NCBI GenBank assembly: GCA_964498425.1
Contig: CAZCGQ010000001.1
Coordinates: 5,779 to 69,778 of the forward strand
Length of the DNA: 64,000 nt
Origin: an uncultured Gammaproteobacteria bacterium
GTDB lineage: Bacteria > Patescibacteriota > Microgenomatia > UBA12405 > JAHJSD01
Direction: 5' to 3'
Made by a program: the position numbers and the translations under genes. Shown here piece after piece: positions 3,098 through 48,309 of the stretch (position 1 is the first letter of the stretch; each line of letters starts with the position of its first letter). The notes below the pieces were generated by a model that did not search any database, was not told where the DNA came from, and saw only the letters and a program-made list of their open reading frames with translations.

Positions 3098-3367
3098 TTA
3101 ACCCCGAAGTATAGCCGAAAGGATTATACTTGTCCCCAAAATTGCAAAAAGCAAATACTCAATCCCTATTTTCGGGCAAAAGTCGCCTCTTTGCTTATGG
3201 TGCCAGACCCCCCAGAAAAAATAGAACAGTCCCATAGCAATCACGACCAGCTTTCTAACCATTATAGGATAAGGGAAACTAAAATATACGACAGCCGCCA
3301 CCGAAAAACCCAGGTATAAAATCAAAAAATCAATCGGTCGGTTGTTAATTTCTTTTCTAAAAAACAT
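3098..3367 (-). CDS. small integral membrane protein (3 predicted TM helices)
   Basis: 89-aa hydrophobic ORF packed tightly between neighbouring genes. No recognised family. Confidence 0.3.
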   Translation of the reverse strand: MFFRKEINNRPIDFLILYLGFSVAAVVYFSFPYPIMVRKLVVIAMGLFYFFWGVWHHKQRGDFCPKIGIEYLLFAILGTSIILSAILRG

Positions 3368-4245
3368 TAAAATATTGCTCCCGCCTGACTTCCTAATAAT
3401 ACTAAGATTAATACTACACCCATAAATCCTAAATGCGCAGTTGTCCGTCCGGTTGTCCGATAAATTTTCTTTCTGACGAATAAATACCCGTCCAAAAGCA
3501 AAGCCCCGGTTACTAAACCAATGACAAATGTACTTATCTTCTGGGTTAATCCCAGTGGATTAATTAACGGTTGAACATTGGGTTCTGTTTCTTTTATAAC
3601 AGAAGCATCAGCAACTTTTACCGGAACAGCCTGTTGAACCTCTTTGCTGGCTTGCGGAGCATTCGCTACTTGAGCCTGAGAAGGCGTCCCGAAAAACTGA
3701 ACAACCAAGGTTGTCTTTATTCCTTCTAAAGTTCCATTAACCACAGCCACGCCAATCTCCTTGTACTTCGGATTAACAATATTATCGCGATGAGTTGGAG
3801 ATTCCATCCAGGCTTGAACAACATCGTCAGCGTTCATAAAATCCCTGGCTAAATTTTCACCAGCCACCCGATAATCATAGCCAACCTCTCGGAAAAACTC
3901 CCAGGGTTCACGACCGCTTGGGGACTCATGAGCCCAATAATCAAAAGCAAACATATCTCCCGCCTTCAACTGTGCCCCCTGGCTCAATGTTTGATTAATT
4001 TTCAATGGGGCCAACCCCAATTTAGCTCTTTCCTGGTTGGTATACTCAACAATCTTTTCCGGAGTAATATCAGAGGCATAACCTAACACTCCCGGTTGAA
4101 TCAAGGCAAAAACATTTAAGGAGACCTGACTAAGGAGAAAGGTAACAACTAAAAAAGCCAAAAAGGGCAAATCCAAGATACCCGCTCTATAGTTATTACG
4201 TCGGCGGGGTAAAAAAAGTGCTTCCACTCTTCGTTTTAGACCCAT
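3367..4245 (-). CDS. CAP (SCP/PR-1/YkwD-like) domain protein with N-terminal TM and C-terminal TM segments
   Basis: 292 aa. YWAHESPSGREPWEFF...GENLARDF...AWMESPTHRDNI...EIGVAVV is a CAP-domain signature. Confidence 0.7.
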   Translation of the reverse strand: MGLKRRVEALFLPRRRNNYRAGILDLPFLAFLVVTFLLSQVSLNVFALIQPGVLGYASDITPEKIVEYTNQERAKLGLAPLKINQTLSQGAQLKAGDMFAFDYWAHESPSGREPWEFFREVGYDYRVAGENLARDFMNADDVVQAWMESPTHRDNIVNPKYKEIGVAVVNGTLEGIKTTLVVQFFGTPSQAQVANAPQASKEVQQAVPVKVADASVIKETEPNVQPLINPLGLTQKISTFVIGLVTGALLLDGYLFVRKKIYRTTGRTTAHLGFMGVVLILVLLGSQAGAIF

Positions 4246-4257
4246 TACAACTTCATG

Positions 4258-5505
4258 TTACACTCTTTTTTTGAAAATGTGAAGTGCTAGAAAAGGAAGT
4301 AGCAAACTTAATATGGTTGCCAACCACGTCCAAGAGCAATAAATGCTCGGTTCCCACCAACGGTGAGCCAACTTATCTCCAAGAAAACCAAGCAATGAAA
4401 TCAATACCGGAACCAACCACAATTTCTTGTTCTCATCAAAGTCATCTCTTCTCCGGTAAACAAATATGCTGTTGATAATTAAAGCCACTATCGTCAACAG
4501 CCACCAAAAACAATTCCTGGCCGTCATCACCCCTGCCTCCTGACCTTCTTCAAACTCTCCCTCTCCGCCAACTTCTCCTTCCGTTGCCTCTCCTTGCACT
4601 TCTTCAAATCCTTCCGCCGGCCCTTCCACTACCGGCCCAACCCCAGCACCCTCAACAAACCCAGCAACCCCAACTTCTTCACTTGAATATGGTCCCGGAG
4701 CACAATCATTAACCGCCCTGACCAGGAAATAATACGTTCCGCCCGGAGTTAAACCGGAAACAGTGTAAGAAGTTACATTCCCGACATTATAATTCCCGTA
4801 AAGATAAACCCCCGAAGTTGTTCCGTAAACAATAGCGTAATGGGTAACCGTCCCAGTATCAGGTGGTGTCCAGCTTAAATTAACTTGACCAACCCCACCG
4901 CTAACCGCCGTTAAACCCAAAGGCACACCCGGTTTATCGGCATCACAGCCACCGTCACCGGCCCCGCCAAGCCCCCCATCAGTGGTAGTTGTTGTATCTC
5001 CATCTATATCACCATCCGCTAGACTTTCAAAACCAAAATTAAAATCAAATGATAAATTTTTCGACTGGTAAAGGTTACCCACACTTGTCGGAAGTTCAGC
5101 TGACAATTGATAATCCTTGTCGTCCCCGGTGATTACACTGGAAAGAATTAAATAACCTTCATTTTCCAAATCCGTCAACGTCCCAGAGAACAGACTCGCT
5201 CCAGCCGTTTCTTTGACCTCAACCTCTATCTTTTCACCTAAACTGTCAGGGTCAGTAAAGTTAACTATTTCCAAGGCAAATTCTCGATCCTCACCATAAT
5301 TATTCTCCGCCTTGATTTCTTTAGTCACTGTCCACCCCGGATAAATATTTCCTTCAGAAAATAGCGGCTTGGTTCCGGTTGAACTACACCCGCCAGAATC
5401 ACAGCTGACTGTCAAGTCAACGGCACTCGCCGGCAGACTAAAAATAAACAAACCCAAACCAATCCCGACAAAAAAAATTATTTTCTTGATCATTAATTTT
5501 GCCAA
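4258..5505 (-). CDS. secreted/membrane-anchored fibronectin type III domain protein
   Basis: 415 aa. Sec-type signal peptide (ASA|VD). FN3 signature VNLSWTPPDTGTVTHYAIVYG...YYFLVRAVND. Gly/Glu-rich linker and two or three C-terminal TM helices. Confidence 0.6.
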   Translation of the reverse strand: MAKLMIKKIIFFVGIGLGLFIFSLPASAVDLTVSCDSGGCSSTGTKPLFSEGNIYPGWTVTKEIKAENNYGEDREFALEIVNFTDPDSLGEKIEVEVKETAGASLFSGTLTDLENEGYLILSSVITGDDKDYQLSAELPTSVGNLYQSKNLSFDFNFGFESLADGDIDGDTTTTTDGGLGGAGDGGCDADKPGVPLGLTAVSGGVGQVNLSWTPPDTGTVTHYAIVYGTTSGVYLYGNYNVGNVTSYTVSGLTPGGTYYFLVRAVNDCAPGPYSSEEVGVAGFVEGAGVGPVVEGPAEGFEEVQGEATEGEVGGEGEFEEGQEAGVMTARNCFWWLLTIVALIINSIFVYRRRDDFDENKKLWLVPVLISLLGFLGDKLAHRWWEPSIYCSWTWLATILSLLLPFLALHIFKKRV

Positions 5506-7469
5506 TTAAATTGACGGCTGTCCGTCCCTAAAATATTATTTCCGTCTTTATAAAGCAAGTGTATCTCCATATTATCAACATTTTCATGAGGAGTACATAC
5601 CTCGCCTTCTGTCGAACATGACCCGATGTAAAGCGGATCCAAATTCAAATTTGGCACGTCCAGCTGTTTTTCTTTAACACCTTCAATTTGCATTTGAACA
5701 TCCTGACCTTGATAAACGTGATCATAAAATACCGAGTATTTTACCTGATCAAAACCCTGAGCATTACTAAATCCAATCATCAAATCCTCATTGTCTTGGC
5801 TGATATCAACCTGAATATGACTGTGCGGATTCGTCCCCGGGTTAGGTGACGTCAACACTTCCCAATCCGAAGGGCTATCCGTATCTACCCCTAGGGTTTT
5901 TCTAGCGATTGATCCACCGTCACCCGCTAACGGAGTTACTCCATTACCACTGCCAAAAGCATAACTGTCATCCCCCCAGCTGACAGCGTCAATTAGTGTA
6001 CCATTCCCATCCTTTAGGACTATTCTGTCTCCACTGTTTGATAAGCCATTACCAATTTTTTGTCCCAAAGAAACCTTTACTGCACTAGATGGAATAGTCC
6101 AATTAGACCAGGTACTTGCACTTTTAGCTAAAACCATGTAGCCATTGGCTGGAATATAGGTATTGGAATGACTTATTGTATCCCCTCCACTGTTATCGCC
6201 TAATGTCCAATCCTTCAAATTAACCTGACTGCTTGTATTATTGTAAAGTTCAACCCACTCATCTGGGTTCGAATCATTGCCTTCATTTTCTCCGGACGCA
6301 ACATCATAATAAACTTCATTAATTACCACATCTGCCAATCCATTCTCATTACTATTTCCACTAGAACCGCCTGATGTATCAATAACAAAATGCTCTAAAG
6401 CCGACCACCCGCTCAAGTTGCCGCTGGTATCCTCCGCTTGTACCTGCCAGTAATAATCGTTGTCTGCTGTTGTTCCAGCTTGATACTCAGAATTAGTTCT
6501 GAATAATCCTGTCGGATTAGGCCAAACTGTTCCCGTTGGCGAGCCAATATATATCCGGTAGTAATAACCGGCTATCCCATAATCATCGGTTGAATCCGCC
6601 CACTGCATTAGCGGGGTATTATCAGAAATTACTACGCCATTTATTGGCCATTCCAAAACTGGAATGCTTGGAGGTTGATCAAGGGTTAAATCTCCGCAAA
6701 CATCAGACATATCACTTTCATTGCCGTCCTTATCAACAGCAATAATTGTGTAGTAATAAGGATTATGCCCGGGAGTCATATTAGCTTCGTAATAGCTAAT
6801 TGGTGCATAAACCTTCTTGTGGTACTTATTAAACTGCGTTCCCAGCCAATAGTAATCAATATCCGCTTCCGGATTATCGTCCCAGTCAATTGTAATTTGC
6901 GGACTGGTTGTCAACCCATCACAGCCAACTTCAACTTTACCACTGCCATACCCTTGATAAATAGTCATCCCGCTTGGTTTTGATGGGGCGTTTTTAACTG
7001 TTACCACCACCCAATCAACCGAATCCCCATCAACTTCTGGATCATTAGGCACCGGTGCTAAATTCGGTTCTTTATTTCCAGACCCATCCCGAGCTTCAAG
7101 TTTAATTACATATTGGCCATCTGGAACAGTAGTCGTATCCCAAGTGTACAGAAGCTCGGAGTTAACATTGGTTGTCCGGTTAACTACGCCTGGAAATCCC
7201 GAAACCAAGTTGTTCGTTAACATATCCTCAGCAGCTAACCAATAGTGATGAGGATCATTATCAGTAATACTACCAATAATTGGAACTGCTCCTGATACAG
7301 TATATCCGTCTGATAAGCTTTCTATTTTTACCGCTGGTGCCGTCCAATCCCCTGATGAAAAATTAACCGTCGTAACCTTTTGATCAGTAAAAAAAGAATT
7401 GGTTATTGATATCCCATTAAGATTAAATAGCAATATTAAGAACAGTAGTTTAAATATCTTTTTTTTCAT
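5493..7469 (-). CDS. large secreted lamin-tail-domain (LTD) plus FN3-like repeat protein with SipW-cognate-type signal peptide
   Basis: 658 aa. N-terminal signal ends NSFFTDQKV..SSGDW (TasA-type A-F-x-D motif). LTD motif VINEVYYD...DEWVELYNNTSSQVNLKDWTL. Overlaps the sipW stop by 4 nt. Confidence 0.65.
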   Translation of the reverse strand: MKKKIFKLLFLILLFNLNGISITNSFFTDQKVTTVNFSSGDWTAPAVKIESLSDGYTVSGAVPIIGSITDNDPHHYWLAAEDMLTNNLVSGFPGVVNRTTNVNSELLYTWDTTTVPDGQYVIKLEARDGSGNKEPNLAPVPNDPEVDGDSVDWVVVTVKNAPSKPSGMTIYQGYGSGKVEVGCDGLTTSPQITIDWDDNPEADIDYYWLGTQFNKYHKKVYAPISYYEANMTPGHNPYYYTIIAVDKDGNESDMSDVCGDLTLDQPPSIPVLEWPINGVVISDNTPLMQWADSTDDYGIAGYYYRIYIGSPTGTVWPNPTGLFRTNSEYQAGTTADNDYYWQVQAEDTSGNLSGWSALEHFVIDTSGGSSGNSNENGLADVVINEVYYDVASGENEGNDSNPDEWVELYNNTSSQVNLKDWTLGDNSGGDTISHSNTYIPANGYMVLAKSASTWSNWTIPSSAVKVSLGQKIGNGLSNSGDRIVLKDGNGTLIDAVSWGDDSYAFGSGNGVTPLAGDGGSIARKTLGVDTDSPSDWEVLTSPNPGTNPHSHIQVDISQDNEDLMIGFSNAQGFDQVKYSVFYDHVYQGQDVQMQIEGVKEKQLDVPNLNLDPLYIGSCSTEGEVCTPHENVDNMEIHLLYKDGNNILGTDSRQFNWQN

Positions 7470-8056
7470 TCCTTGTTTGTTTCCTTTCCTGCCATCATCT
7501 CATCAACCTCATCATCAACTTCTTTAACCTTATTAAAGACCTTTCCTAATTCGTTTTTAATGTTGATGATCTCGCTGTAAACAATAATTACTGCTGGTAT
7601 AACAATCAAAACAATTAAACCTTCTTGCGTTTTCGCAAATGATATTATATGCCCAGCTAATGGAATCGAAAAAATCATCCCACCGATAATTTGCCCTTTG
7701 CTAATTGGTTCGCTATCATTCACATCATTGGCATCACCCTTTGTAACATATTGCATTCGATCATTATCCTCAATTATCTCAACTATCCGATGCGTTGTTG
7801 TATTTTCCGGCGTTGGATTATTAATATCACTCCTGGATTTATAGGTAATTACTTGGCCCTCCTTATATTCTCCCTGCGGCTTAACTAGCACTAAACTACC
7901 AACTGGTACACTTGGTTCCATTGAACCCGACAAAACTGTATATAATCTAAAACCCTTAGGCAAATTTAAAGCTGATATTCCAACCGTTCCCGCAATTAAA
8001 GCCAAAAAAATTATTATTAACCAATAGCTTATTTTTTTTACTAGCTTGAGATTCAT
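7466..8056 (-). CDS. sipW: signal peptidase I, archaeal/ER (Sec11/SipW) type
   Basis: 196 aa. N-terminal TM, catalytic-Ser motif LSGSMEPS, conserved TKGDANDVND (GDxN), C-terminal TM. Confidence 0.8.
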   Translation of the reverse strand: MNLKLVKKISYWLIIIFLALIAGTVGISALNLPKGFRLYTVLSGSMEPSVPVGSLVLVKPQGEYKEGQVITYKSRSDINNPTPENTTTHRIVEIIEDNDRMQYVTKGDANDVNDSEPISKGQIIGGMIFSIPLAGHIISFAKTQEGLIVLIVIPAVIIVYSEIINIKNELGKVFNKVKEVDDEVDEMMAGKETNKE

Positions 8057-8104
8057 TTTTTAATATAAATATATATAAACAATTATAATTTCTATGCTTA
8101 GTTA

Positions 8105-8132
8105 GTTGCGCGAAGATCTCTCCTCACGCAAC
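8105..8132 (-). other. GC-rich hairpin (GTTGCG...CGCAAC) between the tasA-like gene and sipW
   Basis: Imperfect hairpin in the 95-nt intercistronic gap with no adjoining U-run. Possible partial attenuator or mRNA processing site. Confidence 0.25.
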
Positions 8133-8151
8133 CCAGCTAAACATAGCTATT

Positions 8152-8748
8152 TTACTCGTTCCAACCAGGATTTATAAACTGAGTACCATCAACAACAATA
8201 TCTGCTACAGCATTAGCTCCTTGAAATTCATTTCCAGCTGATGAATCTAGCTGAAAGTATAATGCAAAACAGTGAGTAATATTGGGTGATAATTTACCTC
8301 CCCCAATTGAATCAGTTGTTGAATCCCAATTCAAATTTTTAAGCTTACCGGTATAGGTATTTTGAATTGGGCTTATATCCTCGAGATTTGCCCCAGTCAT
8401 ACAATTACCATGGTTAACCTTTACATTCAGCTTATTATAAAACCCTGATACTGATTCACTTTCCTTATCATCATAAAAGCGATATTTCATATCTACCGTA
8501 GAGGAAGGTGTGTTTTTATTATAAATTTTCATTTTATAAGGGCCACTCCAATCTCCTCCCGGCTCCAGATCGGATAAAGTTAAACTTACTGATTCCGTCA
8601 TATCACCATTCAAAGTAAAATCAAGTGCTCCAGCCGCAAATGTATTACTCTCAACAACAGCTTGATCTGTAAAATATGCACTGGTGGCACCAACGGTAAC
8701 AGCACTAACTACGCCGATCACGAATAGGCTAATTAAAATCTTTTTCAT
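8152..8748 (-). CDS. TasA/camelysin (peptidase M73) family secreted protein with SipW-cognate signal peptide
   Basis: 198 aa. Signal ends GATSAYFTDQAVVESNTFAAGALDFT, compared with TasA TWAAFNDIKSKDATFASGTLDLS. C-terminal TQFINPGWN compared with TasA ATQWNG. ATGA overlap with the upstream gene. Confidence 0.7.
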   Translation of the reverse strand: MKKILISLFVIGVVSAVTVGATSAYFTDQAVVESNTFAAGALDFTLNGDMTESVSLTLSDLEPGGDWSGPYKMKIYNKNTPSSTVDMKYRFYDDKESESVSGFYNKLNVKVNHGNCMTGANLEDISPIQNTYTGKLKNLNWDSTTDSIGGGKLSPNITHCFALYFQLDSSAGNEFQGANAVADIVVDGTQFINPGWNE

Positions 8749-8981
8749 CTATTTTCACCTCCTTTCCTTTCATCAATCATCAATTCGTCTTCAACCACCA
8801 TTGGGGAATATCTTGGATTTAAAACATCAAGACATTCAACTAAGGTAATAGCACCCCACCGACAAGCCAATATAACCTGATCTGAAATTGCTTTTAATCT
8901 CTCAGTGTCGCCCTCTTGCTCTAACTTCAAAACGATTTCTTGTAATCGTTTTTTTCCCTTTTTCCGTTCAGTTAAAGGCAT
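8745..8981 (-). CDS. small cytoplasmic protein, first gene of the sipW/tasA-like operon
   Basis: 78 aa, charged and helical, no recognisable family. Strong SD AGGGAGGT 6 nt upstream of its ATG. Confidence 0.4.
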   Translation of the reverse strand: MPLTERKKGKKRLQEIVLKLEQEGDTERLKAISDQVILACRWGAITLVECLDVLNPRYSPMVVEDELMIDERKGGENR

Positions 8982-9045
8982 ATGTACCTCCCTTGGGGCT
9001 CTGAGGCAGGAGGTTGAAGATTATTGAGGTATATTTTCATTTATT

Positions 9046-9059
9046 GTTCTTTAGAGAAC
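9046..9059 (-). promoter_or_regulatory. inverted-repeat operator GTTCTTTAGAGAAC (SinR-type GTTCTYT half-sites)
   Basis: Perfect 7+7 inverted repeat located about 15 nt downstream of the -10 element, overlapping the predicted +1. Matches the B. subtilis SinR consensus GTTCTYT. Confidence 0.5.
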
Positions 9060-9074
9060 AAAACTAATACCTTG

Positions 9075-9103
9075 ATAATATAACTCTGCCAATTATTTGT
9101 CAA
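9075..9103 (-). promoter_or_regulatory. sigma70-type promoter of the small-ORF/tasA-like/sipW operon
   Basis: Minus-strand TTGACA, 17-nt spacer, TATTAT, about 95 nt upstream of the 8981 start codon. Confidence 0.55.
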
Positions 9104-9183
9104 GAAAAGATATCCATATAACTAACTTAGGGGATAGCTAATATATACCTAAACAAGCAGTTGATCGTCTTAGATAGTGGAAA

Positions 9184-9903
9184 TTAATTTTGACTATAAG
9201 AAGTAATCTTATTCGCCTCGATATTGCCGGCTGTGTCTTCGCTGAAGAAGCTGATTGTGTTCTCCCCGGTCTGAAGTTGGCTGGTCAAATCAACTTTGTT
9301 TCCGTAAGACGTCGAAATTGGCTGACCGTTAATGGCATAGTGTATCTTTAAAACTCCAGAACCAAAATCATCATCAGCTAACAGCTGAACTTGATTACCG
9401 GAAACATTAAAAATTGTTGTCGGCGGGGAAGTATCAACAAAGATTGTTTTGAAGTCGTTTTCAAAATTCTTTTCTTCTTCATTGACCCGCTTATCAACAG
9501 CCAAAACTTGAAAATCATAAAATCCGTCACCATCCGGACAGTTGAAGTTAATTTCGTTATCAGAATCGTAATCCTTCTTGGTAAAATACTGCCAATTTTC
9601 TTGGTTGAATGAATACCACAGTTCAACGTAGTCTACTCCACTGCCAACATCAGTCGCCTGGTAAATAATTTCAAAACTGCTATCCGGGCTGATTCCTTTC
9701 ACCGGCTGGCTGGCTGTAACTTCGGTTATCTCCGATTCCGGTTTAATCCAGTCCCCCGTTGACAGTCGAAAACCACCAACCGACGCTTTATCCTGAAAAG
9801 CAGAATAAGTAAGCGGAACAAATACTACTGCTGACGAAATCAATAAAACCAAAATTGGCCAACGAAAATACTCCTTCAAGTATTTATCCTTTCTTAATTT
9901 CAT
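9184..9903 (-). CDS. secreted protein with SipW-cognate-type signal peptide
   Basis: 239 aa. Signal ends PLTYSAFQDKASVGGFRLSTGDW. It shares the post-signal S[ST]GDW motif with the 658-aa LTD protein. Confidence 0.5.
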   Translation of the reverse strand: MKLRKDKYLKEYFRWPILVLLISSAVVFVPLTYSAFQDKASVGGFRLSTGDWIKPESEITEVTASQPVKGISPDSSFEIIYQATDVGSGVDYVELWYSFNQENWQYFTKKDYDSDNEINFNCPDGDGFYDFQVLAVDKRVNEEEKNFENDFKTIFVDTSPPTTIFNVSGNQVQLLADDDFGSGVLKIHYAINGQPISTSYGNKVDLTSQLQTGENTISFFSEDTAGNIEANKITSYSQN

Positions 9904-9916
9904 TTGTTATCCAGTT

Positions 9917-10567
9917 TTATAATGCCTGGGTCCCGGTAAACTCAATATTTAAATCAACTGATTTTTCGGCTATTTCATTGCCAGCGTTATCACTGACCCG
10001 AATCCACATAACAAAGTGTCTCAGCTGATCAGGCCCAATCGCTTCACCGGTAATTTCATCTGAATTTCCAGCCCACCATTGCATGTCGTGCCAGTTGGTG
10101 GAAGTAGATACCTTTGACCAGTTATAATCCTGGTTTTCATAAGCCCACCAGGCGTCATCTCGACTGTTATACTCTAAAATTCTCGCTTCTACTGCATTTT
10201 TCAAAACTCCCCATGACCCGGAATAACCATCGGAATTAGCGTAAGCACTTAAAGTTGTCGTCACCACCAAACTAATTTCGGATTGGCTGACATTTTTTAA
10301 TCGGAAATAATCTCCAACCAAATAGCCGGGATACATCCCGGAAATAGTCCCATAGTTAGTTATCGAATCACACAACTTACCGTTGTCGCCATCGGAAATA
10401 CATCCTTCCCCGGTCATCCCTGTTGCTCCGATTTTTAAATCAGCGTTACCGGTCGTCATTGTCATTCCCTTGACCTCGCCCTTATTGTTAAAAACCGCAA
10501 AGGCCGTTCCACTAACTACCCCAACAGTCACTGCAATTATAAATATACTTATAAGAATTCTTTTCAT
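9917..10567 (-). CDS. TasA/camelysin-like secreted protein paralogue
   Basis: Likely start MKRILISIF at 10567, preceded by SD GAGGGGGTGA. Signal ends GTAFAVFNNKGEVKGMTMTTGNADL, resembling TasA AAFNDIKSKDATFASGTLDL. The ORF track extends it to 10609. Confidence 0.5.
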   Translation of the reverse strand: MKRILISIFIIAVTVGVVSGTAFAVFNNKGEVKGMTMTTGNADLKIGATGMTGEGCISDGDNGKLCDSITNYGTISGMYPGYLVGDYFRLKNVSQSEISLVVTTTLSAYANSDGYSGSWGVLKNAVEARILEYNSRDDAWWAYENQDYNWSKVSTSTNWHDMQWWAGNSDEITGEAIGPDQLRHFVMWIRVSDNAGNEIAEKSVDLNIEFTGTQAL

Positions 10568-10714
10568 TAATCTCACCCCCTCTCTTTTGAAGTAAGCAAT
10601 AACTCCCAATTGTTTGAAGCCGATAGTAAAATAATGCCTGGCAGTATTTGGCTAACCACGTTTAATTAGGCTAACACTTTCAGAATAGACCGAAAAAAAT
10701 TCCTTGTCAAGAAT

Positions 10715-11122
10715 TTACGCCTGGGGATACATCTGGCGGAATAATTTTATCTTCTTTAACCTTTCAACGGCAAAGTCAAAAATAAACTGGGAGAAAATTA
10801 TAATACCGAAAAAATCAATTATAACGTCGCGAATAGTTCCCTCCCTAGTCGGAACAAGTGTCTGGTGAAACTCGTCAGACATACCGTAAAGTGTAGCAAT
10901 AATAATCGCCAGTTTATTAGCCGACTTCCTCTCGCCAAGACCCAATCGAAGAAGAGAATATAGAACGCCGTATTCAATAACGTGCAGTGTTTTAAAGATA
11001 GCAAAATTAACCCAATAATTACCCCCCATACCGACCTTGTGCTGACTGGAAGCCCAAAAAATCAAGGACATCCAAATCAAGGCTGGTAAAAATCTAAGAT
11101 ACTTGGTTGCCTTTTTCATCAT
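10715..11122 (-). CDS. VanZ-like family membrane protein
   Basis: 135 aa. LPALIWMSLIFWASSQ is a typical VanZ-family N-terminus. Four TM helices. Confidence 0.5.
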   Translation of the reverse strand: MMKKATKYLRFLPALIWMSLIFWASSQHKVGMGGNYWVNFAIFKTLHVIEYGVLYSLLRLGLGERKSANKLAIIIATLYGMSDEFHQTLVPTREGTIRDVIIDFFGIIIFSQFIFDFAVERLKKIKLFRQMYPQA

Positions 11123-11801
11123 TCTTCATTTTATCAAATAATTCTTTTATTTTCGGGCCAAACCCTACCCCGCCAAGAAGCAGTCCTCCCATGCCAATAA
11201 ACCCACCGGCGATTAACTTACCCTTATCCCGAGGTTCTTTCTGGCTGGTTTCACCAAGAACGTCCCCAGGCCCACTGACCTCAAGATCGTTATCTGAATC
11301 CGAAAGAGTTGGAATTGGTGTTGGTGAAACTTCCTGAGTAGGGGTTGGCGATTTCTTAGGACTTGGTGTCGGGGTTAATGTTTCCGTAGGAGTCGGCGTT
11401 GACGTTTCCTTTGGCGTCTCCGTCGGCTTCTTTGTTGGTGTTGAAGTTGGCTCATCCACAGCACGACAATCCTGATTGGCCTCTCCCTTTGTAGGTTCAG
11501 CCTGACACCAACTGCCGTAAACATAGGCCCAGGTGATCCCCTCCTCCGAATAATCGTATAGTTTGTTATCCTTTTCTAGTTGATCATGGTTAAGTAGACG
11601 TACCTCATCTCCACTGTTGTTGAACATGCTATCCATTTCGATAACTGCCAAACTTTTTGCCTCAATCTCCTTGCTGAATTTCTTTGGAGAACTTTTACCT
11701 TCTTCATCATCAATATACCAATCAATCAAATCAACACTAAAATCATTATCATTGTAAATTTCCACCCATTCATCTTCATTATCCGCAGGTTTAGGCATCA
11801 C
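11094..11801 (-). CDS. lamin-tail-domain protein, downstream half (second LTD, Thr/Pro-rich linker, C-terminal Gly-rich hydrophobic anchor)
   Basis: LTD motif NEDEWVEIYNDNDFSVDLIDWYI. The GTG/ATG start at 11801 is in frame with the upstream LTD ORF through a single TAG at 11973-11975. Confidence 0.5.
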   Translation of the reverse strand: MMPKPADNEDEWVEIYNDNDFSVDLIDWYIDDEEGKSSPKKFSKEIEAKSLAVIEMDSMFNNSGDEVRLLNHDQLEKDNKLYDYSEEGITWAYVYGSWCQAEPTKGEANQDCRAVDEPTSTPTKKPTETPKETSTPTPTETLTPTPSPKKSPTPTQEVSPTPIPTLSDSDNDLEVSGPGDVLGETSQKEPRDKGKLIAGGFIGMGGLLLGGVGFGPKIKELFDKMKNDEKGNQVS

Positions 11802-11972: not shown

Positions 11973-12356
11973 CTAACCATCTGGCTTTCTCCCATAAGTA
12001 ACATTCTCCCCAGGACTTTGTTGATAATCATAGGAATCTACCGTAGATTCATTATTATCTAATAATCTTAGTGTATCAGCGGAAGAAACATTTAAATTAA
12101 AATTGCCGCTTTGAAAAGACAAACAGCTTTGGCCATCTAATACCGTACCGCTAGAAATTACATACTTTTGGGTTCCACCGCTGTCATCAATAATCCATCC
12201 GCTGACATCAACGCTATCATAACCGGTGTTATAAATTTCAACCCATTGCTCACTGCTTGGCTCAATTAAAAATTCATTTAGCTTAACTTCGGCTTGACAT
12301 CGGAGAGGAAAAAACATAAGCAAAACAAAGAAAAAAATGAATTTTCTCATTACCAT
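11973..12356 (-). CDS. lamin-tail-domain protein, upstream half (signal peptide plus first LTD)
   Basis: 127 aa. Signal peptide ending RCQA. LTD motif LNEFLIEPSSEQWVEIYNTGYDSVDVSGWII. Ends at TAG 11973-11975, and the reading frame continues open for 57 codons into the next ORF. Confidence 0.5.
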   Translation of the reverse strand: MVMRKFIFFFVLLMFFPLRCQAEVKLNEFLIEPSSEQWVEIYNTGYDSVDVSGWIIDDSGGTQKYVISSGTVLDGQSCLSFQSGNFNLNVSSADTLRLLDNNESTVDSYDYQQSPGENVTYGRKPDG

Positions 12357-12414: not shown

Positions 12415-13641
12415 TTATTTAACGTGCCAGTACATTGTCATTTTCCCGTTCGGGTGGAAGACAAAAACGCCGTTACCGCCGTCGCCGAGGCAGTTGCGGC
12501 AGAAGTAGGCCTCACCTTCGTCAACAGAATAAATTTGGGTATTCATCGGCCCAACCAAATCTATCGCCGGATGCGGTCGCCCGCCGTAAAGGGCATTGGA
12601 ATGACAAGTATAACCATAACCTTGAGAAATATAACTCAAATCCTTCATTGGCCACGGCCACCCGCCGCCGCCAACACTTTTTGTTCCGTCTGATCCGCAA
12701 CCGGACCTCCAACTAACCTCTTGCCCCGCTAAATAATCTAGCGGATTGACGTAATTAGAGTAATACCAACTATCACCAAGATCATCAATTGAACCATAGT
12801 TATAAACACCAAAATGTAAGTGGTCACCGGTAGAATACCCAGTATTTCCTTGTATTCCAATAAACTCCTGTTTATCAACCTTGATTGATTTCCCGCTTTG
12901 CTTTAAAAATAAAGCAGCTTGCTGAATTTCAGCTATTTCTTTTCTAGCTTCAGCCAACAAATTTTGATACCGACGTTCATTATTCTGAGTAACCGTCAGC
13001 AGGTATTCTTTTTCCTGTTTCTGCTGGGCCAAGTTGTTTCTCTGAGCATCTAACTGTGCCTTAAGTTCTTCCAATTCTGCCTGCTTTACTTCCTTTTCCT
13101 CTTTTCGCTGATCGTAATCCGCCCGCATTTTTTCCATTGCCATGAGCATTTTTCGGTCATTGAGCTGGGCAACCTGAAAATATTTCCATCGACGATAAAA
13201 ATTGCCAAACTTTTCTGAAGAAAGAAGCAAATCCACCGAGGAAACCTGTCCTGCCTTATAAGTAGCAATTACTCGGTTAATGAATAAGGCCGAAACATCA
13301 TCTAGCGAGGTATCCAAAATGCCAATTTTTCGGCCGAGTTCATTAACTTGGGCCTCTAACAAACTAATCTTGCTCTGAGTTTGGCCAATTTTAGCCTGAG
13401 TCAACTGAATCTGAGAATTCATATAGCTAATCTGATTCTTTAAGGAAGATTTTTGATTAGCAATATTCGATAACTCCTGTTGACAGTCACTTTGAACCTC
13501 GTTATAAATCTCTAATTGTTCTTCCTGAGATCGGTTATCAATGTCATCGGGGATCTCGCAAGCAGCTCTTAAAGACTGAGCCCCAAGTAAAATGGAAAGA
13601 AGCCCAACTGTCAAAACTGCTGCCAGAAGTTTGCGTTTCAT
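12415..13641 (-). CDS. EnvC-like coiled-coil M23 (LytM) metallopeptidase, FtsEX-associated
   Basis: 408 aa. Signal peptide and about 200-aa coiled coil. GNTGYSTGDHLHFGV (M23 HxH segment) precedes WPMKDL...HPAIDLVGPMNTQIYSVDEG...HPNGKMTMYWHV (M23 HxxxD N-terminal segment). Immediately downstream of ftsX. Confidence 0.75.
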   Translation of the reverse strand: MKRKLLAAVLTVGLLSILLGAQSLRAACEIPDDIDNRSQEEQLEIYNEVQSDCQQELSNIANQKSSLKNQISYMNSQIQLTQAKIGQTQSKISLLEAQVNELGRKIGILDTSLDDVSALFINRVIATYKAGQVSSVDLLLSSEKFGNFYRRWKYFQVAQLNDRKMLMAMEKMRADYDQRKEEKEVKQAELEELKAQLDAQRNNLAQQKQEKEYLLTVTQNNERRYQNLLAEARKEIAEIQQAALFLKQSGKSIKVDKQEFIGIQGNTGYSTGDHLHFGVYNYGSIDDLGDSWYYSNYVNPLDYLAGQEVSWRSGCGSDGTKSVGGGGWPWPMKDLSYISQGYGYTCHSNALYGGRPHPAIDLVGPMNTQIYSVDEGEAYFCRNCLGDGGNGVFVFHPNGKMTMYWHVK

Positions 13642-14549
13642 CGCTTAATATACCGCCGACTGGCTAACCAGGCAGCGAATAAACCCAACAATAAACCAAC
13701 ACCTATTTGTCCGCCTAAAAAGATGGCCAAGGTTTGCGGTTCAGTTGGCAAAACCGAAATTGGGGCAAAAAATGACAAAATTTGTTCACGCCAATAATAT
13801 ATTCCACCGACAACAAACAATTCTCCGAGCAAAGCGCCAATAAAGCCGTAAAATAAGCCTTCCAAAAGAAAAGGGGACTGAACATAAAAACCGCTGGCTC
13901 CAATTGATCTCAAAGCAGCAATTTCATCACGGTGCGTGCCAATCTTCATCCCGATAATAACCATAATCACCACCAAAGAAACAAATCCGTAAACACCAAC
14001 CATAACTAAACCAACATTGCGAATATTCTTGACCCAAAAGGATAATTTTTGGACAACCTCTTTCTGAAAAATAACTTCTTGAACGGAATTTTCCTTAGTA
14101 CTTAAAAAATCAGCAATTGAATTTAAATATTCCGGGCTTGTGGCTGATATTTCCAATGAGGCTGGTAAAATATCTGCACTGACCATTTCTAAAAGCAAAG
14201 GATTATCCTCATTATCCTCTTGATAAATTTTTAAGGCTTCCTCTTTAGACACAAACCTAACTTCCTTTATTCCTTCCTGACTACCAATTTCCTCCTTCAG
14301 TTGGTCAACTTGGGCTGAAGAAAGACCATCTTTCAAAAACGCGGTTACTTCCGGCCGACTTTCAAAATAATTAAGAAGGATCCCAAAAACAAAAATTACA
14401 GCAATAAGCAAACTTGTCATAAAATAATTCAGCCACATAACCAAAATAGCCGCAAAACTCTGAAAAGGTGCCCGCCTCATATGCTGCCAAGTTCTGCTTA
14501 AACTACCCAATTTGGTTTTAATTTTAGTTTCTTTATTCATACTTTCCAT
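13638..14549 (-). CDS. ftsX: cell division permease-like protein FtsX
   Basis: 303 aa. N-terminal TM, periplasmic domain, three C-terminal TM helices. Overlaps ftsE. Confidence 0.85.
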   Translation of the reverse strand: MESMNKETKIKTKLGSLSRTWQHMRRAPFQSFAAILVMWLNYFMTSLLIAVIFVFGILLNYFESRPEVTAFLKDGLSSAQVDQLKEEIGSQEGIKEVRFVSKEEALKIYQEDNEDNPLLLEMVSADILPASLEISATSPEYLNSIADFLSTKENSVQEVIFQKEVVQKLSFWVKNIRNVGLVMVGVYGFVSLVVIMVIIGMKIGTHRDEIAALRSIGASGFYVQSPFLLEGLFYGFIGALLGELFVVGGIYYWREQILSFFAPISVLPTEPQTLAIFLGGQIGVGLLLGLFAAWLASRRYIKR

Positions 14550-15213
14550 TTTCTTTGTCGTGAGCTAATCCTCCATCCTCTAATTTCACTACCCGCTTCC
14601 CAGCAGAGTTAACTATATCAAAATCGTGAGTTGCCATCACTACTGTCGTTCCCGTTTGATTAATTTTTTCAAGTAAATCCATGATTTCCCAGCTTGTTTC
14701 TGGATCCAGATTTCCTGTTGGCTCATCAGCCATCAACAAATCCGGCTCAATAATCAAAGCCCTAGCTAAACATACCCGCTGGAGCTCTCCGCCTGAAAGC
14801 TGGGCCGGAAACATATTTATCCGGCTGAGCAAATTGACTTTATCCAAAACTTCCTTAAGCTTTTCTTCCCGATTTTCATCCTTATCACCAACAACAGCCA
14901 AAGCCATTAAAATGTTTTCGGCAACAGTCTGCCGCCTAAGCAGTCGGTAATCCTGATGGACCATGCCAATTCTACGCCGAAGTGAAAGAATATCCTTGCG
15001 CTTGGTCTTTTTGTTGATTTTCAGGTCATCAACAACTACCTCGCCATTATCTGGGAAATATTCTCCCCGAATTAATTTTAGAACCGTACTTTTTCCCGCT
15101 CCAGATTTGCCGGTAATAAAAATAAATTCTTTCGGCTTAACCTCAAAAGAAATGTCATGAATGGCTTTTACAACACCAAATTCCTTGGTTACATCAGTAA
15201 ATTTTATCCGCAT
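14533..15213 (-). CDS. ftsE: cell division ATP-binding protein FtsE (ABC ATPase)
   Basis: 226 aa. Walker A GKSGAGKST, ABC signature LSGGELQRV, Walker B LLMADEPT. Confidence 0.9.
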   Translation of the reverse strand: MRIKFTDVTKEFGVVKAIHDISFEVKPKEFIFITGKSGAGKSTVLKLIRGEYFPDNGEVVVDDLKINKKTKRKDILSLRRRIGMVHQDYRLLRRQTVAENILMALAVVGDKDENREEKLKEVLDKVNLLSRINMFPAQLSGGELQRVCLARALIIEPDLLMADEPTGNLDPETSWEIMDLLEKINQTGTTVVMATHDFDIVNSAGKRVVKLEDGGLAHDKENGKYE

Positions 15214-47984: not shown

Positions 47985-48055
47985 GAAGACGTGTTGCCGG
48001 GCGTGGATTCGAACCACGATTAACACGTTCAGAGCGTGCCGTCCTACCATTAGAC
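47985..48055 (-). tRNA. tRNA-Gln (anticodon CUG), U1:A72
   Basis: 71-nt cloverleaf with acceptor TGCCGGG/CCCGGCA, anticodon loop CTCTGAA and T-loop TTCGAAT. No encoded CCA. Confidence 0.85.
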
Positions 48056-48109
48056 GACCCGGCAAGCAAAAACTATTATATTTTACCATTTCCACCCCAA
48101 CCTCAAAAA

Positions 48110-48188: not shown

Positions 48189-48309
48189 TGCCCGGTCTTT
48201 GGAGCGAGGTGGAACCACCTGTACCCATTCCGAACACAGAAGTGAAACTCCTCAGCGCTGACGATAGTCTATCGGCAACGGTACGCGAAAATAGGTCAAG
48301 GCCGGGCAT
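48189..48309 (+). rRNA. rrf: 5S ribosomal RNA
   Basis: CACCTGTACCCATTCCGAACACAGAAGTGAAACTCCTCAGCGCTGACGATAGT aligns with E. coli CACCTGACCCCATGCCGAACTCAGAAGTGAAACGCCGTAGCGCCGATGGTAGT. Helix I is GCCCGGTC/GGCCGGGC. Confidence 0.9.

What the first reader, a model, noticed from the sequence alone, without database searches (positions are those of the whole stretch)
3367..10609. tapA-sipW-tasA-like surface-fibre locus: archaeal-type signal peptidase SipW embedded among four proteins with SipW-cognate signal peptides
Seen in sequence: the 7466-8056 ORF carries the Sec11/SipW catalytic motifs SGSMEP and GDAN. All four neighbouring secreted proteins (8152-8748, 5493-7469, 9184-9903, 9917-10567) end their signal peptides with the TasA-type motif hydrophobic-A-[YFV]-F-[TQN]-[DN] (AYFTDQ, SFFTDQ, SAFQDK, AVFNNK). 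The 198-aa protein also aligns to TasA/camelysin at both ends. Two of the proteins share a post-cleavage S[ST]GDW box. Genes overlap by 4 nt (ATGA), indicating one operon: small ORF, tasA-like, sipW, 658-aa LTD/FN3 adhesin-like protein, FN3 membrane protein, CAP-domain protein. Established knowledge: in Bacillus, SipW is dedicated to processing TasA and TapA for amyloid-like biofilm fibres. Inference: this is a dedicated secretion and assembly system for a TasA-like fibre or adhesin apparatus in what looks like a reduced-genome (CPR-like) bacterium. Such a system could mediate attachment to a host cell or surface and has not, to my knowledge, been characterised in such lineages.
Basis: partly seen in the sequence, partly recalled or inferred. 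Interest (0 to 1): 0.8.

Follow-up and report, generated by a model that had tools for sequence, protein, structure and literature searches.

The report
TasA-type fibre locus with membrane anchor
This is a real gene cluster for a TasA-like surface filament with its own SipW-type signal peptidase, probably in a candidate-phyla-radiation (CPR) bacterium; it appears to encode shaft, tip and membrane-anchor parts, a layout already proposed for archaeal "tafi" and some Firmicutes but not studied in CPR.

Summary
On the minus strand, 3098-10567, lies a SipW/archaeal-type signal peptidase (TIGR02228, 107 bits against a cut-off of 51.85). Around it are four secreted proteins whose hydrophobic leader is followed by x-F-[TQN]-[DN]. 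In the whole window this motif occurs only in these four proteins.

- **216-aa protein:**
- **"FN3 membrane protein":** it starts with a TasA-like jelly-roll that lacks the N-terminal donor strand. It has an ordinary AxA signal peptide and three C-terminal membrane helices.
- **The shared motif:** it is the start of the mature donor strand, not the end of the signal peptide.

Best reading: a donor-strand-exchange filament. The 658-aa LTD protein and the 239-aa Ig protein would be tips or initiators, the 198-aa (and 216-aa) proteins the shaft, and the anchored domain the base.

The order tasA-like, sipW, donor-strand protein, anchor recurs in CPR MAGs. The same logic is published for archaeal tafi and for AbpX loci, and TasA homologues in Patescibacteria were already noted. 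Verdict: a new member of a known kind. No function was tested.

The parts
9917..10567 (-). 216-aa secreted protein: a second, divergent TasA-like subunit (candidate minor or adapter subunit). Leader ...GTAFA|VFNNKGEV.
   Evidence: hhalign against the TasA-like family A1: 97.8%, E 7e-13, over the full length. BLASTP against the 198-aa protein: 24% identity, E 9e-11. No Pfam or TIGR04088 hit.
9184..9903 (-). 239-aa secreted protein: leader, then a TapA-like donor-strand segment (YS|AFQDKASVGGFRLSTGDW), then Ig-like (OmpL47-type) domains. Candidate donor-only tip or initiator.
   Evidence: NF047446 51.8 bits (cut-off 40). Resembles the TasA family only over the leader and donor strand, and weakly. 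Picked up by the motif scan.
9075..9103 (-). Promoter-like site TTGACA-17-TATTAT in the 202-nt gap upstream of the 78-aa ORF.
   Evidence: 11 of 12 consensus match. This is a consensus match only.
8745..8981 (-). 78-aa ORF with no signal peptide, a GGGAGG ribosome-binding site, and an ATGA overlap with the tasA-like gene. Function unknown.
   Evidence: The only homologue found is on a contig carrying an identical 198-aa protein (L001).
8152..8748 (-). 198-aa TasA-like major subunit. Leader, then donor strand at about residues 24/25-39 (AYFTDQAVVESNTFAA; nt 8632-8679), then a jelly-roll core.
8092..8146 (-). Strong RNA stem-loop between the tasA-like gene and sipW. Candidate attenuator or mRNA stabiliser that raises the major-subunit ratio.
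   Evidence: MFE -34.2 kcal/mol, z -6.4. Hairpins of unrelated sequence sit at the same position in 7 of 8 CPR-type loci.
7466..8056 (-). 196-aa SipW/archaeal-type (S26B) signal peptidase I with N- and C-terminal membrane segments.
   Evidence: TIGR02228 107 bits (cut-off 51.85); NF046067 111 bits, below its 190 cut-off. Invariant GSMxP, THR and GDAN. TM segments.
5493..7469 (-). 658-aa secreted protein: leader, donor-strand segment (TNS|FFTDQKVTTVNFSSGDW), then Ig-like domains and a lamin-tail domain. Candidate tip adhesin and initiator, analogous to TapA or TafC.
   Evidence: LTD 74 bits, plus Ig_Rha78A_N and Big_13 below their cut-offs. TIGR04088 14.7, below the cut-off of 19. Matches the TasA family only over residues 2-40. 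The gene after sipW carries a donor motif in all CPR-type loci.
4258..5493 (-). 411-aa protein (415 aa from the TTG at 5505): ordinary signal peptide (PASA|VD), donor-strand-less TasA-like jelly-roll (about residues 29-160), fn3 domain, acidic linker, three C-terminal TM helices. Candidate acceptor-only membrane anchor and terminator, like TafF.
3367..4245 (-). 292-aa membrane-bound CAP/YkwD-domain protein, conserved next to the anchor gene. Role unknown.
   Evidence: CAP 79 bits. Adjacent to G-like genes in L039, L040 and L044, and nearby in L002/4, L006, L010 and L017.
3098..3367 (-). 89-aa protein with three TM segments, joined to the CAP gene by a TAATG overlap. Conserved partner of the CAP gene.
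   Evidence: Homologues follow the CAP gene in L039, L040 and L044.

Best explanation
The locus encodes a TasA-superfamily filament that is assembled outside the cell by donor-strand exchange and held on the cell by its own anchor subunit.

Shown:
- A SipW/archaeal-type signal peptidase I is encoded here.
- There are two TasA-like subunits, of 198 and 216 aa.
- Two multidomain proteins (658 aa with LTD and Ig-like domains; 239 aa with Ig-like domains) resemble TasA only in a leader plus an N-terminal donor-strand-like segment.
- A membrane protein has a TasA-like jelly-roll that begins exactly where the donor strand would end.

Inferred:
1. SipW cleaves the four precursors at [TA]-x-[AS]|x-F. 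This leaves Phe at P2', as in TasA, and exposes the donor strand.
2. The donor-only proteins insert their strand into a 198-aa subunit. This releases that subunit's own strand and starts a head-to-tail polymer, as TapA does for TasA and TafC does in tafi.
3. The donor-only proteins therefore end up at the distal tip, with their LTD/Ig domains as adhesins.
4. The 216-aa paralogue would act as a minor or adapter subunit.
5. The last free donor strand is accepted by the anchor protein. That protein has no strand of its own, so it both terminates the polymer and fixes it in the membrane through three C-terminal helices.
6. The hairpin after the major-subunit gene and the translational coupling of the tip and anchor genes fit a stoichiometry of many shaft subunits to one tip and one base.
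For: Family assignments.

Donor strand: the motif aligns with TasA residues 28-38, which form the donor strand. The TapA N-terminus mimics that strand (PMC9674648; PMC10151520). An aromatic P2' residue is what makes TasA depend on SipW (PMC10269814 abstract).

Synteny:
- tasA-like and sipW are adjacent in 31 of 33 loci.
- The order tasA-like, sipW, donor-motif protein, anchor-type protein occurs in all loci from named CPR MAGs and in relatives (L002/3, L005, L008, L010, L016, L017, L025).
- The same order appears twice in tandem in a locus found starting from an anchor protein (L043).

Anchor family:
- 3634 cluster representatives at E<=1e-3.
- In the top 151, 138 have at least one C-terminal TM segment, 14 have an LPXTG signal, and only 4 show a regex hit to the donor motif.
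- Clostridial counterparts carry three SLH domains instead.
- So the donor-less domain is always joined to some surface anchor.

[quoted passage not shown] AF3 models place LPXTG anchors in donor-strand oligomers with AbpX.
Against: - Polymerisation, polarity, SipW dependence and anchoring are all inferred.
- TIGR04088 supports only one of the four leaders. The 239-aa protein's resemblance to the donor strand is weak (hhalign probability 7%).
- Foldseek against the PDB gave no hit with E<=1e-3 for the 198-aa model, and TasA was absent from the top 50.
- The anchor domain keeps the segment that self-complements monomeric TasA, so it may not offer an open groove.
- In one related locus (L040) no sipW lies within 7 kb.
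Confidence: 0.6

Rival explanations
1. Bacillus-type released matrix fibres. The TasA-like proteins form unanchored biofilm or aggregation fibres nucleated by the donor-only proteins. The membrane protein with the donor-less domain is not a structural base; it would be a chaperone, an inhibitor, or a sensor that holds or caps subunits at the membrane.
For: TasA fibres in B. subtilis form an extracellular scaffold, and TapA acts only at initiation. Nothing here shows that fibres stay attached to the cell. The anchor domain keeps the self-complementing segment.
Against: The donor-less domain is consistently fused to anchoring modules of four different kinds: several TM helices, a single TM helix, LPXTG, and SLH. 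It is translationally coupled to the tip gene. That pattern is what a structural base would show, and it matches TafF and the AbpX anchors.
Confidence: 0.2
2. Two-piece anchored adhesins rather than a filament. The 658- and 239-aa proteins dock directly by single strand complementation onto the membrane-anchored acceptor domain. The 198- and 216-aa proteins would add at most a very short spacer.
For: The tip and anchor genes are adjacent and coupled in every locus examined. A donor-only and an acceptor-only protein are complementary by design.
Against: The most conserved and probably most highly expressed gene is the 198-aa TasA-like subunit, which is followed by a strong hairpin. Its homologues TasA, AbpA, CanX and TafE all form filaments.
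Confidence: 0.12
3. Secreted camelysin-like metalloprotease(s), or unrelated envelope proteins that merely share a dedicated signal peptidase.
For: Pfam names the family Peptidase_M73.
Against: There is no HExxH or other metalloprotease motif in the 198- or 216-aa sequences (read). The best structural matches are filament subunits. The literature treats TasA as a non-proteolytic fibre subunit.
Confidence: 0.03

Closest known systems
B. subtilis tapA-sipW-tasA (and B. cereus sipW-tasA-calY)
   Same: A dedicated archaeal-type signal peptidase sits next to its substrates. The major subunit is homologous to TasA, with an N-terminal donor strand beginning x-F-[NT]-D right after the cleavage site. 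An accessory protein shares only the donor-strand segment, as TapA does. There are two TasA paralogues, as in B. cereus.
   Different: The SipW is below the Bacillus equivalog cut-off (111 against 190). The accessory proteins are not TapA homologues; they carry LTD and Ig-like domains. Gene order differs (tasA-like, sipW, tip, anchor). A donor-less, membrane-anchored TasA-like subunit is present, and the Bacillus operon has no counterpart for it.
Archaeal Tat-fimbriae (tafi) of Haloarcula hispanica / Natrinema: TafA, TafC, TafD, TafE, TafF (PMC11821415, PMC12337348)
   Same: The parts list and proposed logic are the same:
- a tip protein with an N-terminal donor strand plus an adhesin domain;
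- a minor or adapter pilin and a major pilin;
- a dedicated archaeal-type signal peptidase;
- an anchor with a pilin-like N-domain and three C-terminal TM helices, which uses a different signal-peptide type from the pilins and is proposed to terminate assembly.
   Different: The leaders here are Sec-type, not Tat. No DUF5305 (TafG) partner and no TafB regulator was detected among the cluster proteins scanned. The subunits are closer to bacterial TasA (PF12389). The host is a bacterium. Sequence homology to the Taf proteins was not tested.
Bacterial AbpX/TasA-superfamily loci with SLH or LPXTG anchors (bioRxiv 10.64898/2026.01.04.697558)
   Same: A TasA-superfamily subunit lies beside a signal peptidase I, together with putative tip and minor components and surface-anchor proteins predicted to join the donor-strand oligomer. 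I found the same SLH-anchored, donor-less domain in Lutispora and Clostridiaceae loci.
   Different: Here the anchor is an integral membrane segment rather than SLH or LPXTG. The peptidase is the two-TM SipW type, not the ten-TM type described for AbpX. That paper does not mention Patescibacteria.
Chaperone-usher type 1 / P pili
   Same: Donor-strand complementation between Ig-like or jelly-roll subunits. A single tip adhesin, many shaft subunits and a terminator. A hairpin after the major-subunit gene.
   Different: There is no chaperone, usher or outer membrane. Polarity is reversed: here the tip is donor-only and the base acceptor-only. The systems are not homologous.

Membership tests
SipW / archaeal-type signal peptidase I (TIGR02228, MEROPS S26B) | HMM score above the curated cut-off | tested here: met
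   TIGR02228 107 bits against 51.85, covering 5-164 of 196 aa.
SipW / archaeal-type signal peptidase I (TIGR02228, MEROPS S26B) | Catalytic Ser in the GSMxP box, His (not Lys) in the THR box, and a conserved GDAN..D box | tested here: met
   All three boxes are invariant in an alignment of 15 homologues that includes the window protein.
SipW / archaeal-type signal peptidase I (TIGR02228, MEROPS S26B) | Ortholog of Bacillus SipW (NF046067 equivalog) | tested here: not met
   111 bits, below the 190 cut-off. It is the same type of enzyme but not the Bacillus equivalog.
SipW / archaeal-type signal peptidase I (TIGR02228, MEROPS S26B) | Cleaves the neighbouring precursors | not testable with these tools
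   Needs co-expression and N-terminal sequencing.
TasA / camelysin (Pfam PF12389, TasA superfamily) | Sequence model above the gathering score (198-aa protein) | tested here: met
   32.6 bits against 22.5, residues 12-179. The family profile hits TasA 5of1/8aur at E 3e-7.
TasA / camelysin (Pfam PF12389, TasA superfamily) | Jelly-roll fold like TasA | tested here: met
TasA / camelysin (Pfam PF12389, TasA superfamily) | N-terminal donor strand directly after the cleavage site | tested here: met
   AYFTDQAVVESNTF aligns with the TasA 28-41 region. The role of that region is taken from PMC9674648.
TasA / camelysin (Pfam PF12389, TasA superfamily) | Membership of the 216-aa protein | tested here: inconclusive
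   No Pfam hit, but hhalign gives 97.8%, E 7e-13 over the full length, and hmmsearch with the family profile gives E 5e-17.
TasA / camelysin (Pfam PF12389, TasA superfamily) | Polymerises into fibres | not testable with these tools
   Needs in vitro assembly, cryo-EM or multimer modelling.
SipW-cognate signal peptide (TIGR04088) | HMM above the cut-off of 19 bits in each of the four proteins | tested here: inconclusive
   198-aa protein: 31.4-34.5, met. 658-aa protein: 14.7, below the cut-off. 216- and 239-aa proteins: no hit. The motif-level match is unique to these four proteins in the window.
TapA | Homology beyond the donor-strand segment | tested here: not met
   The 658- and 239-aa proteins match LTD, Ig and OmpL47-type models only. 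They match the TasA family over the leader and donor strand only. They may work like TapA but are not members.
Tafi-like / anchored TasA-superfamily pilus | Anchor subunit with a pilin-like N-domain lacking a donor strand, plus a C-terminal membrane or wall anchor | tested here: met
   Family-wide pattern.
Tafi-like / anchored TasA-superfamily pilus | Tat signal peptides on the pilins and a DUF5305 (TafG) partner | tested here: not met
   The leaders are Sec-type, with K/R then a hydrophobic stretch and no RR motif. No DUF5305 hit appeared among the cluster proteins scanned.
Tafi-like / anchored TasA-superfamily pilus | Sequence homology to TafA, TafE or TafF | not tested

The most novel reading that the evidence does not exclude
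Many CPR/Patescibacteria (Saccharibacteria, Berkelbacteria, Moraniibacteria and relatives) build a second class of surface filament besides type IV pili. It would be a Sec/SipW-dependent, TasA-type donor-strand pilus, anchored in the membrane by a previously unmodelled acceptor-only subunit family and tipped by lamin-tail-domain proteins. Such filaments could mediate attachment to host cells, or capture of DNA or polymers. That would make them a direct handle on the episymbiotic lifestyle.
Probability: 0.3. Interest if true: 0.75.

Novelty: new member of a known kind. Interest (0 to 1): 0.5.

Why it matters
How ultrasmall CPR bacteria recognise and hold their hosts is an open question. So far only type IV pili, a type IV secretion system (T4SS) and a few adhesins have been implicated.

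This locus, and the recurring four-gene module in CPR MAGs, gives a concrete and testable candidate for a second filament system. Its parts are defined: shaft, tip, anchor and peptidase.

It also shows that the anchor-type, donor-less TasA domain belongs to a large family: at least 3,600 clusters at 50% identity. No Pfam or NCBIfam model covers this domain, so such loci are under-annotated.

The mechanism itself is not new. The same logic is already proposed for TasA/TapA, for tafi and for AbpX loci.

Tried and rejected
- **The search for related loci with the full 24-sequence TasA-like alignment** failed because no stretch was conserved enough. A 15-sequence subset worked.
- **The search for homologous proteins with the anchor N-domain alone** found nothing. 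An 8-sequence alignment found only 3 proteins. The exhaustive HMMER scan was needed to see the family.
- **The metagenome scan seeded with the anchor alignment** returned only 3 loci.
- **The listing of cluster members** gave no names or taxonomy. The organism could not be placed directly, and the single genome-contig scan did not return the source genome.
- **TIGR04088** did not confirm the 216- and 239-aa leaders.
- **Camelysin protease reading:** rejected, because no metalloprotease motif is present.
- **My early idea that the fn3 domain is specific to this window:** rejected, because fn3 or PurAcPhosph_N-like inserts are common in the anchor family.
- **My first impression that the acceptor-only anchor was a new concept:** withdrawn after reading the tafi and AbpX papers.
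- **Multimer modelling** could not be done with the tools available.

Full report
**What is in the sequence**

All ORFs of the finding exist on the minus strand. From upstream to downstream they are:
- a 216-aa protein (9917-10567);
- a 239-aa protein (9184-9903);
- a 202-nt gap with a promoter-like site (9075-9103);
- a 78-aa ORF (8745-8981);
- a 198-aa protein (8152-8748);
- a 95-nt gap;
- a 196-aa peptidase (7466-8056);
- a 658-aa protein (5493-7469);
- a 411/415-aa protein (4258-5493 or 5505);
- a 292-aa CAP protein (3367-4245);
- an 89-aa membrane protein (3098-3367).

ATGA overlaps join the 78-aa and 198-aa genes, and the peptidase and 658-aa genes. TAATG overlaps join the 658-aa and anchor genes, and the CAP and 89-aa genes.

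**The peptidase**

It scores 107 bits on TIGR02228, the archaeal/SipW-type signal peptidase I model (cut-off 51.85). It scores 111 bits on the Bacillus SipW equivalog, below that model's cut-off of 190. The GSMxP, THR and GDANxxxD boxes are invariant in 15 homologues. It has N- and C-terminal membrane segments. It is therefore a SipW-type enzyme, though not the Bacillus ortholog.

**The four leaders**

A strict five-residue motif occurs three times in 21,067 residues of window ORFs. All three lie at positions 24-38 of cluster proteins, where 0.003 would be expected. A relaxed motif that also requires a preceding hydrophobic stretch selects exactly the four proteins.

HMM support is uneven:
- TIGR04088 passes only for the 198-aa protein;
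- it is sub-threshold for the 658-aa protein;
- it is silent for the other two.

In B. subtilis, TasA is cleaved before A28. Residues 28-38 are the donor strand that completes the next subunit's fold, and the TapA N-terminus mimics that strand (PMC9674648; PMC10151520). The Phe at P2' is what makes TasA a poor substrate for ordinary signal peptidase (abstract of PMC10269814).

Aligning on that Phe gives these sites:
- TSA|YF (198-aa protein);
- TNS|FF (658-aa protein);
- TYS|AF (239-aa protein);
- AFA|VF (216-aa protein).

The shared motif is therefore the start of the mature protein, meaning the donor strand. It is not the end of the signal peptide. The cleavage sites are inferred.

**The TasA-like subunits**

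The 198-aa protein:
- passes Pfam PF12389;
- has 27 homologues, almost all from metagenomes;
- gives a family profile that hits TasA structures 5of1 and 8aur at E 3e-7.

The 216-aa protein has no Pfam hit, but it is a full-length divergent paralogue (hhalign 97.8%, E 7e-13).

The 658- and 239-aa proteins resemble the family only over the leader and donor strand. Otherwise they carry LTD, Ig-like and OmpL47-type domains.

**The "FN3 membrane protein"**

The conserved parts are an N-terminal domain of about 150 aa and the C-terminal membrane region.

An alignment of this domain from eight loci matches the TasA-like family at 98.5%, E 2.7e-15. The match starts at TasA column 40, immediately after the donor strand. 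Plain hmmsearch cross-hits in both directions.

The leader is an ordinary AxA type (PASA|VD). Three membrane helices close the protein.

The family is large. It has 3634 cluster representatives at E<=1e-3, and no Pfam or NCBIfam model covers the domain. Among the top 151:
- 138 have C-terminal TM segments;
- 14 have LPXTG signals;
- the donor motif is essentially absent.

In Lutispora and Clostridiaceae loci, the last gene of the sipW/tasA cluster is the same donor-less domain fused to three SLH domains.

**Synteny**

The tasA-like and sipW genes are adjacent in 31 of 33 genome loci, spanning CPR, Chloroflexota, Actinomycetota and Bacillota.

The full order (tasA-like genes, sipW, donor-motif protein often with LTD, anchor-type protein) is seen in:
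- Saccharibacteria, Berkelbacteria and Moraniibacteriota MAGs, and related contigs;
- loci found starting from anchor proteins, including one contig with two complete modules in tandem (L043).

The CAP protein, the 89-aa protein and an RNaseH-like gene follow the anchor gene in L039, L040 and L044, as they do in the window.

A strong hairpin follows the major-subunit gene here (z -6.4). Hairpins of unrelated sequence sit at the same place in 7 of 8 CPR-type loci.

**Mechanism**

Putting this together, the most likely product is a donor-strand-exchange filament with three kinds of part:
- donor-only tip or initiator proteins (658 and 239 aa);
- a shaft of the 198-aa subunit, with the 216-aa paralogue as a minor subunit;
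- an acceptor-only, membrane-anchored terminator.

The pieces and their homologies are shown. The assembly order, polarity, SipW dependence and any role in host attachment are inferred.

**Comparison with the literature**

- PF12389 homologues in Patescibacteria were already noted (PMC9245690).
- The tip/adapter/core/anchor/peptidase model is published for archaeal tafi. It includes an anchor with a pilin-like N-domain, three C-terminal TM helices and a different signal type (PMC11821415; PMC12337348).
- A 2026 preprint reports SLH and LPXTG anchors in bacterial AbpX loci, predicted to join the donor-strand oligomer.
- I found no paper treating this system in CPR.

The locus is therefore a new member of a known kind. 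What it adds is the CPR-wide module, the LTD tip, and the size of the unmodelled anchor family.

**Taxonomy**

The source organism could not be identified. Its cluster proteins are closest to CPR MAG proteins. The TasA-like protein is 55% identical to one from Moraniibacteriota. SipW E-values are 1e-30 to 1e-40 (1.9e-50 for L016, a MAG labelled Pseudomonadales) against CPR-type loci, compared with 1e-6 to 1e-27 against others. The CPR assignment is likely but not proven.

Noticed in passing
window 8092-8146 (-); L005:10320-10381, L007:1228-1301, L008:9598-9667, L010:6897-6954, L025:709-766, L016:9622-9719, L002:10571-10700: A strong RNA hairpin (z -3.3 to -6.4) sits directly after the TasA-like major-subunit gene in 8 of 9 CPR-type loci. 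The sequences are unrelated. In L005 nearly the same hairpin follows both TasA-like genes. It is probably an attenuator or mRNA stabiliser.
   Followed up: partly
window 8745-8981 (-): A 78-aa ORF with no signal peptide has a GGGAGG ribosome-binding site and an ATGA overlap with the tasA-like gene. No family hit. The only homologue found is on a contig carrying an identical 198-aa protein (L001). It could be a small regulator or chaperone.
   Followed up: no
window 5493-7469, 11094-11801, 11973-12356 (all -): Three lamin-tail-domain proteins lie within 7 kb. One is the 658-aa tip candidate. One is a 235-aa protein with a Pro/Thr-rich linker and a C-terminal TM segment but no evident leader (its start may be mis-called). 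One is a 127-aa protein with an ordinary signal peptide.
   Followed up: partly
window 3098-4245 (-); L039, L040, L044: A membrane-bound CAP/YkwD protein and an 89-aa three-TM protein, followed by an RNaseH-like gene in the window and L044, sit directly downstream of the anchor gene in distant relatives. The CAP protein is better conserved than the anchor. Its link to the filament is unexplained.
   Followed up: partly
L043:5008-12434: A 349-kb metagenome contig carries two complete modules in tandem (tasA-like, sipW, donor-strand protein, anchor). One anchor ends in an LPRTG sortase signal and the other in several TM helices.
   Followed up: partly
window 8152-8748 (-), residues H113, C116, H159, C160: Two His and two Cys are invariant in the 15 closest homologues of the 198-aa protein but not in more distant ones. 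They could form a disulfide or a metal site. The AbpX preprint predicts a disulfide bond in AbpX and reports calcium-mediated donor-strand complementation by other residues.
   Followed up: no
window 48191-48307 (+): A 5S rRNA gene stands alone next to tRNA-Gln (47993-48064, -). There is no 16S or 23S rRNA in the 64-kb window, so the 5S gene is not in a standard rrn operon here.
   Followed up: no
P0094, P0119, P0182: Some database proteins combine an anchor-type domain with a second leader plus a TasA-like N-terminus, and in one case with LTD and PG_binding_1 (sub-threshold match). They are either real fusions or run-through gene calls of adjacent module genes.
   Followed up: no
window 12415-15213 (-): An FtsE-FtsX-M23 peptidase (coiled-coil EnvC-like) cell-division hydrolase module lies just upstream. 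It is followed by a peptide chain release factor (PCRF/RF-1 domains), SecA and SerRS.
   Followed up: no
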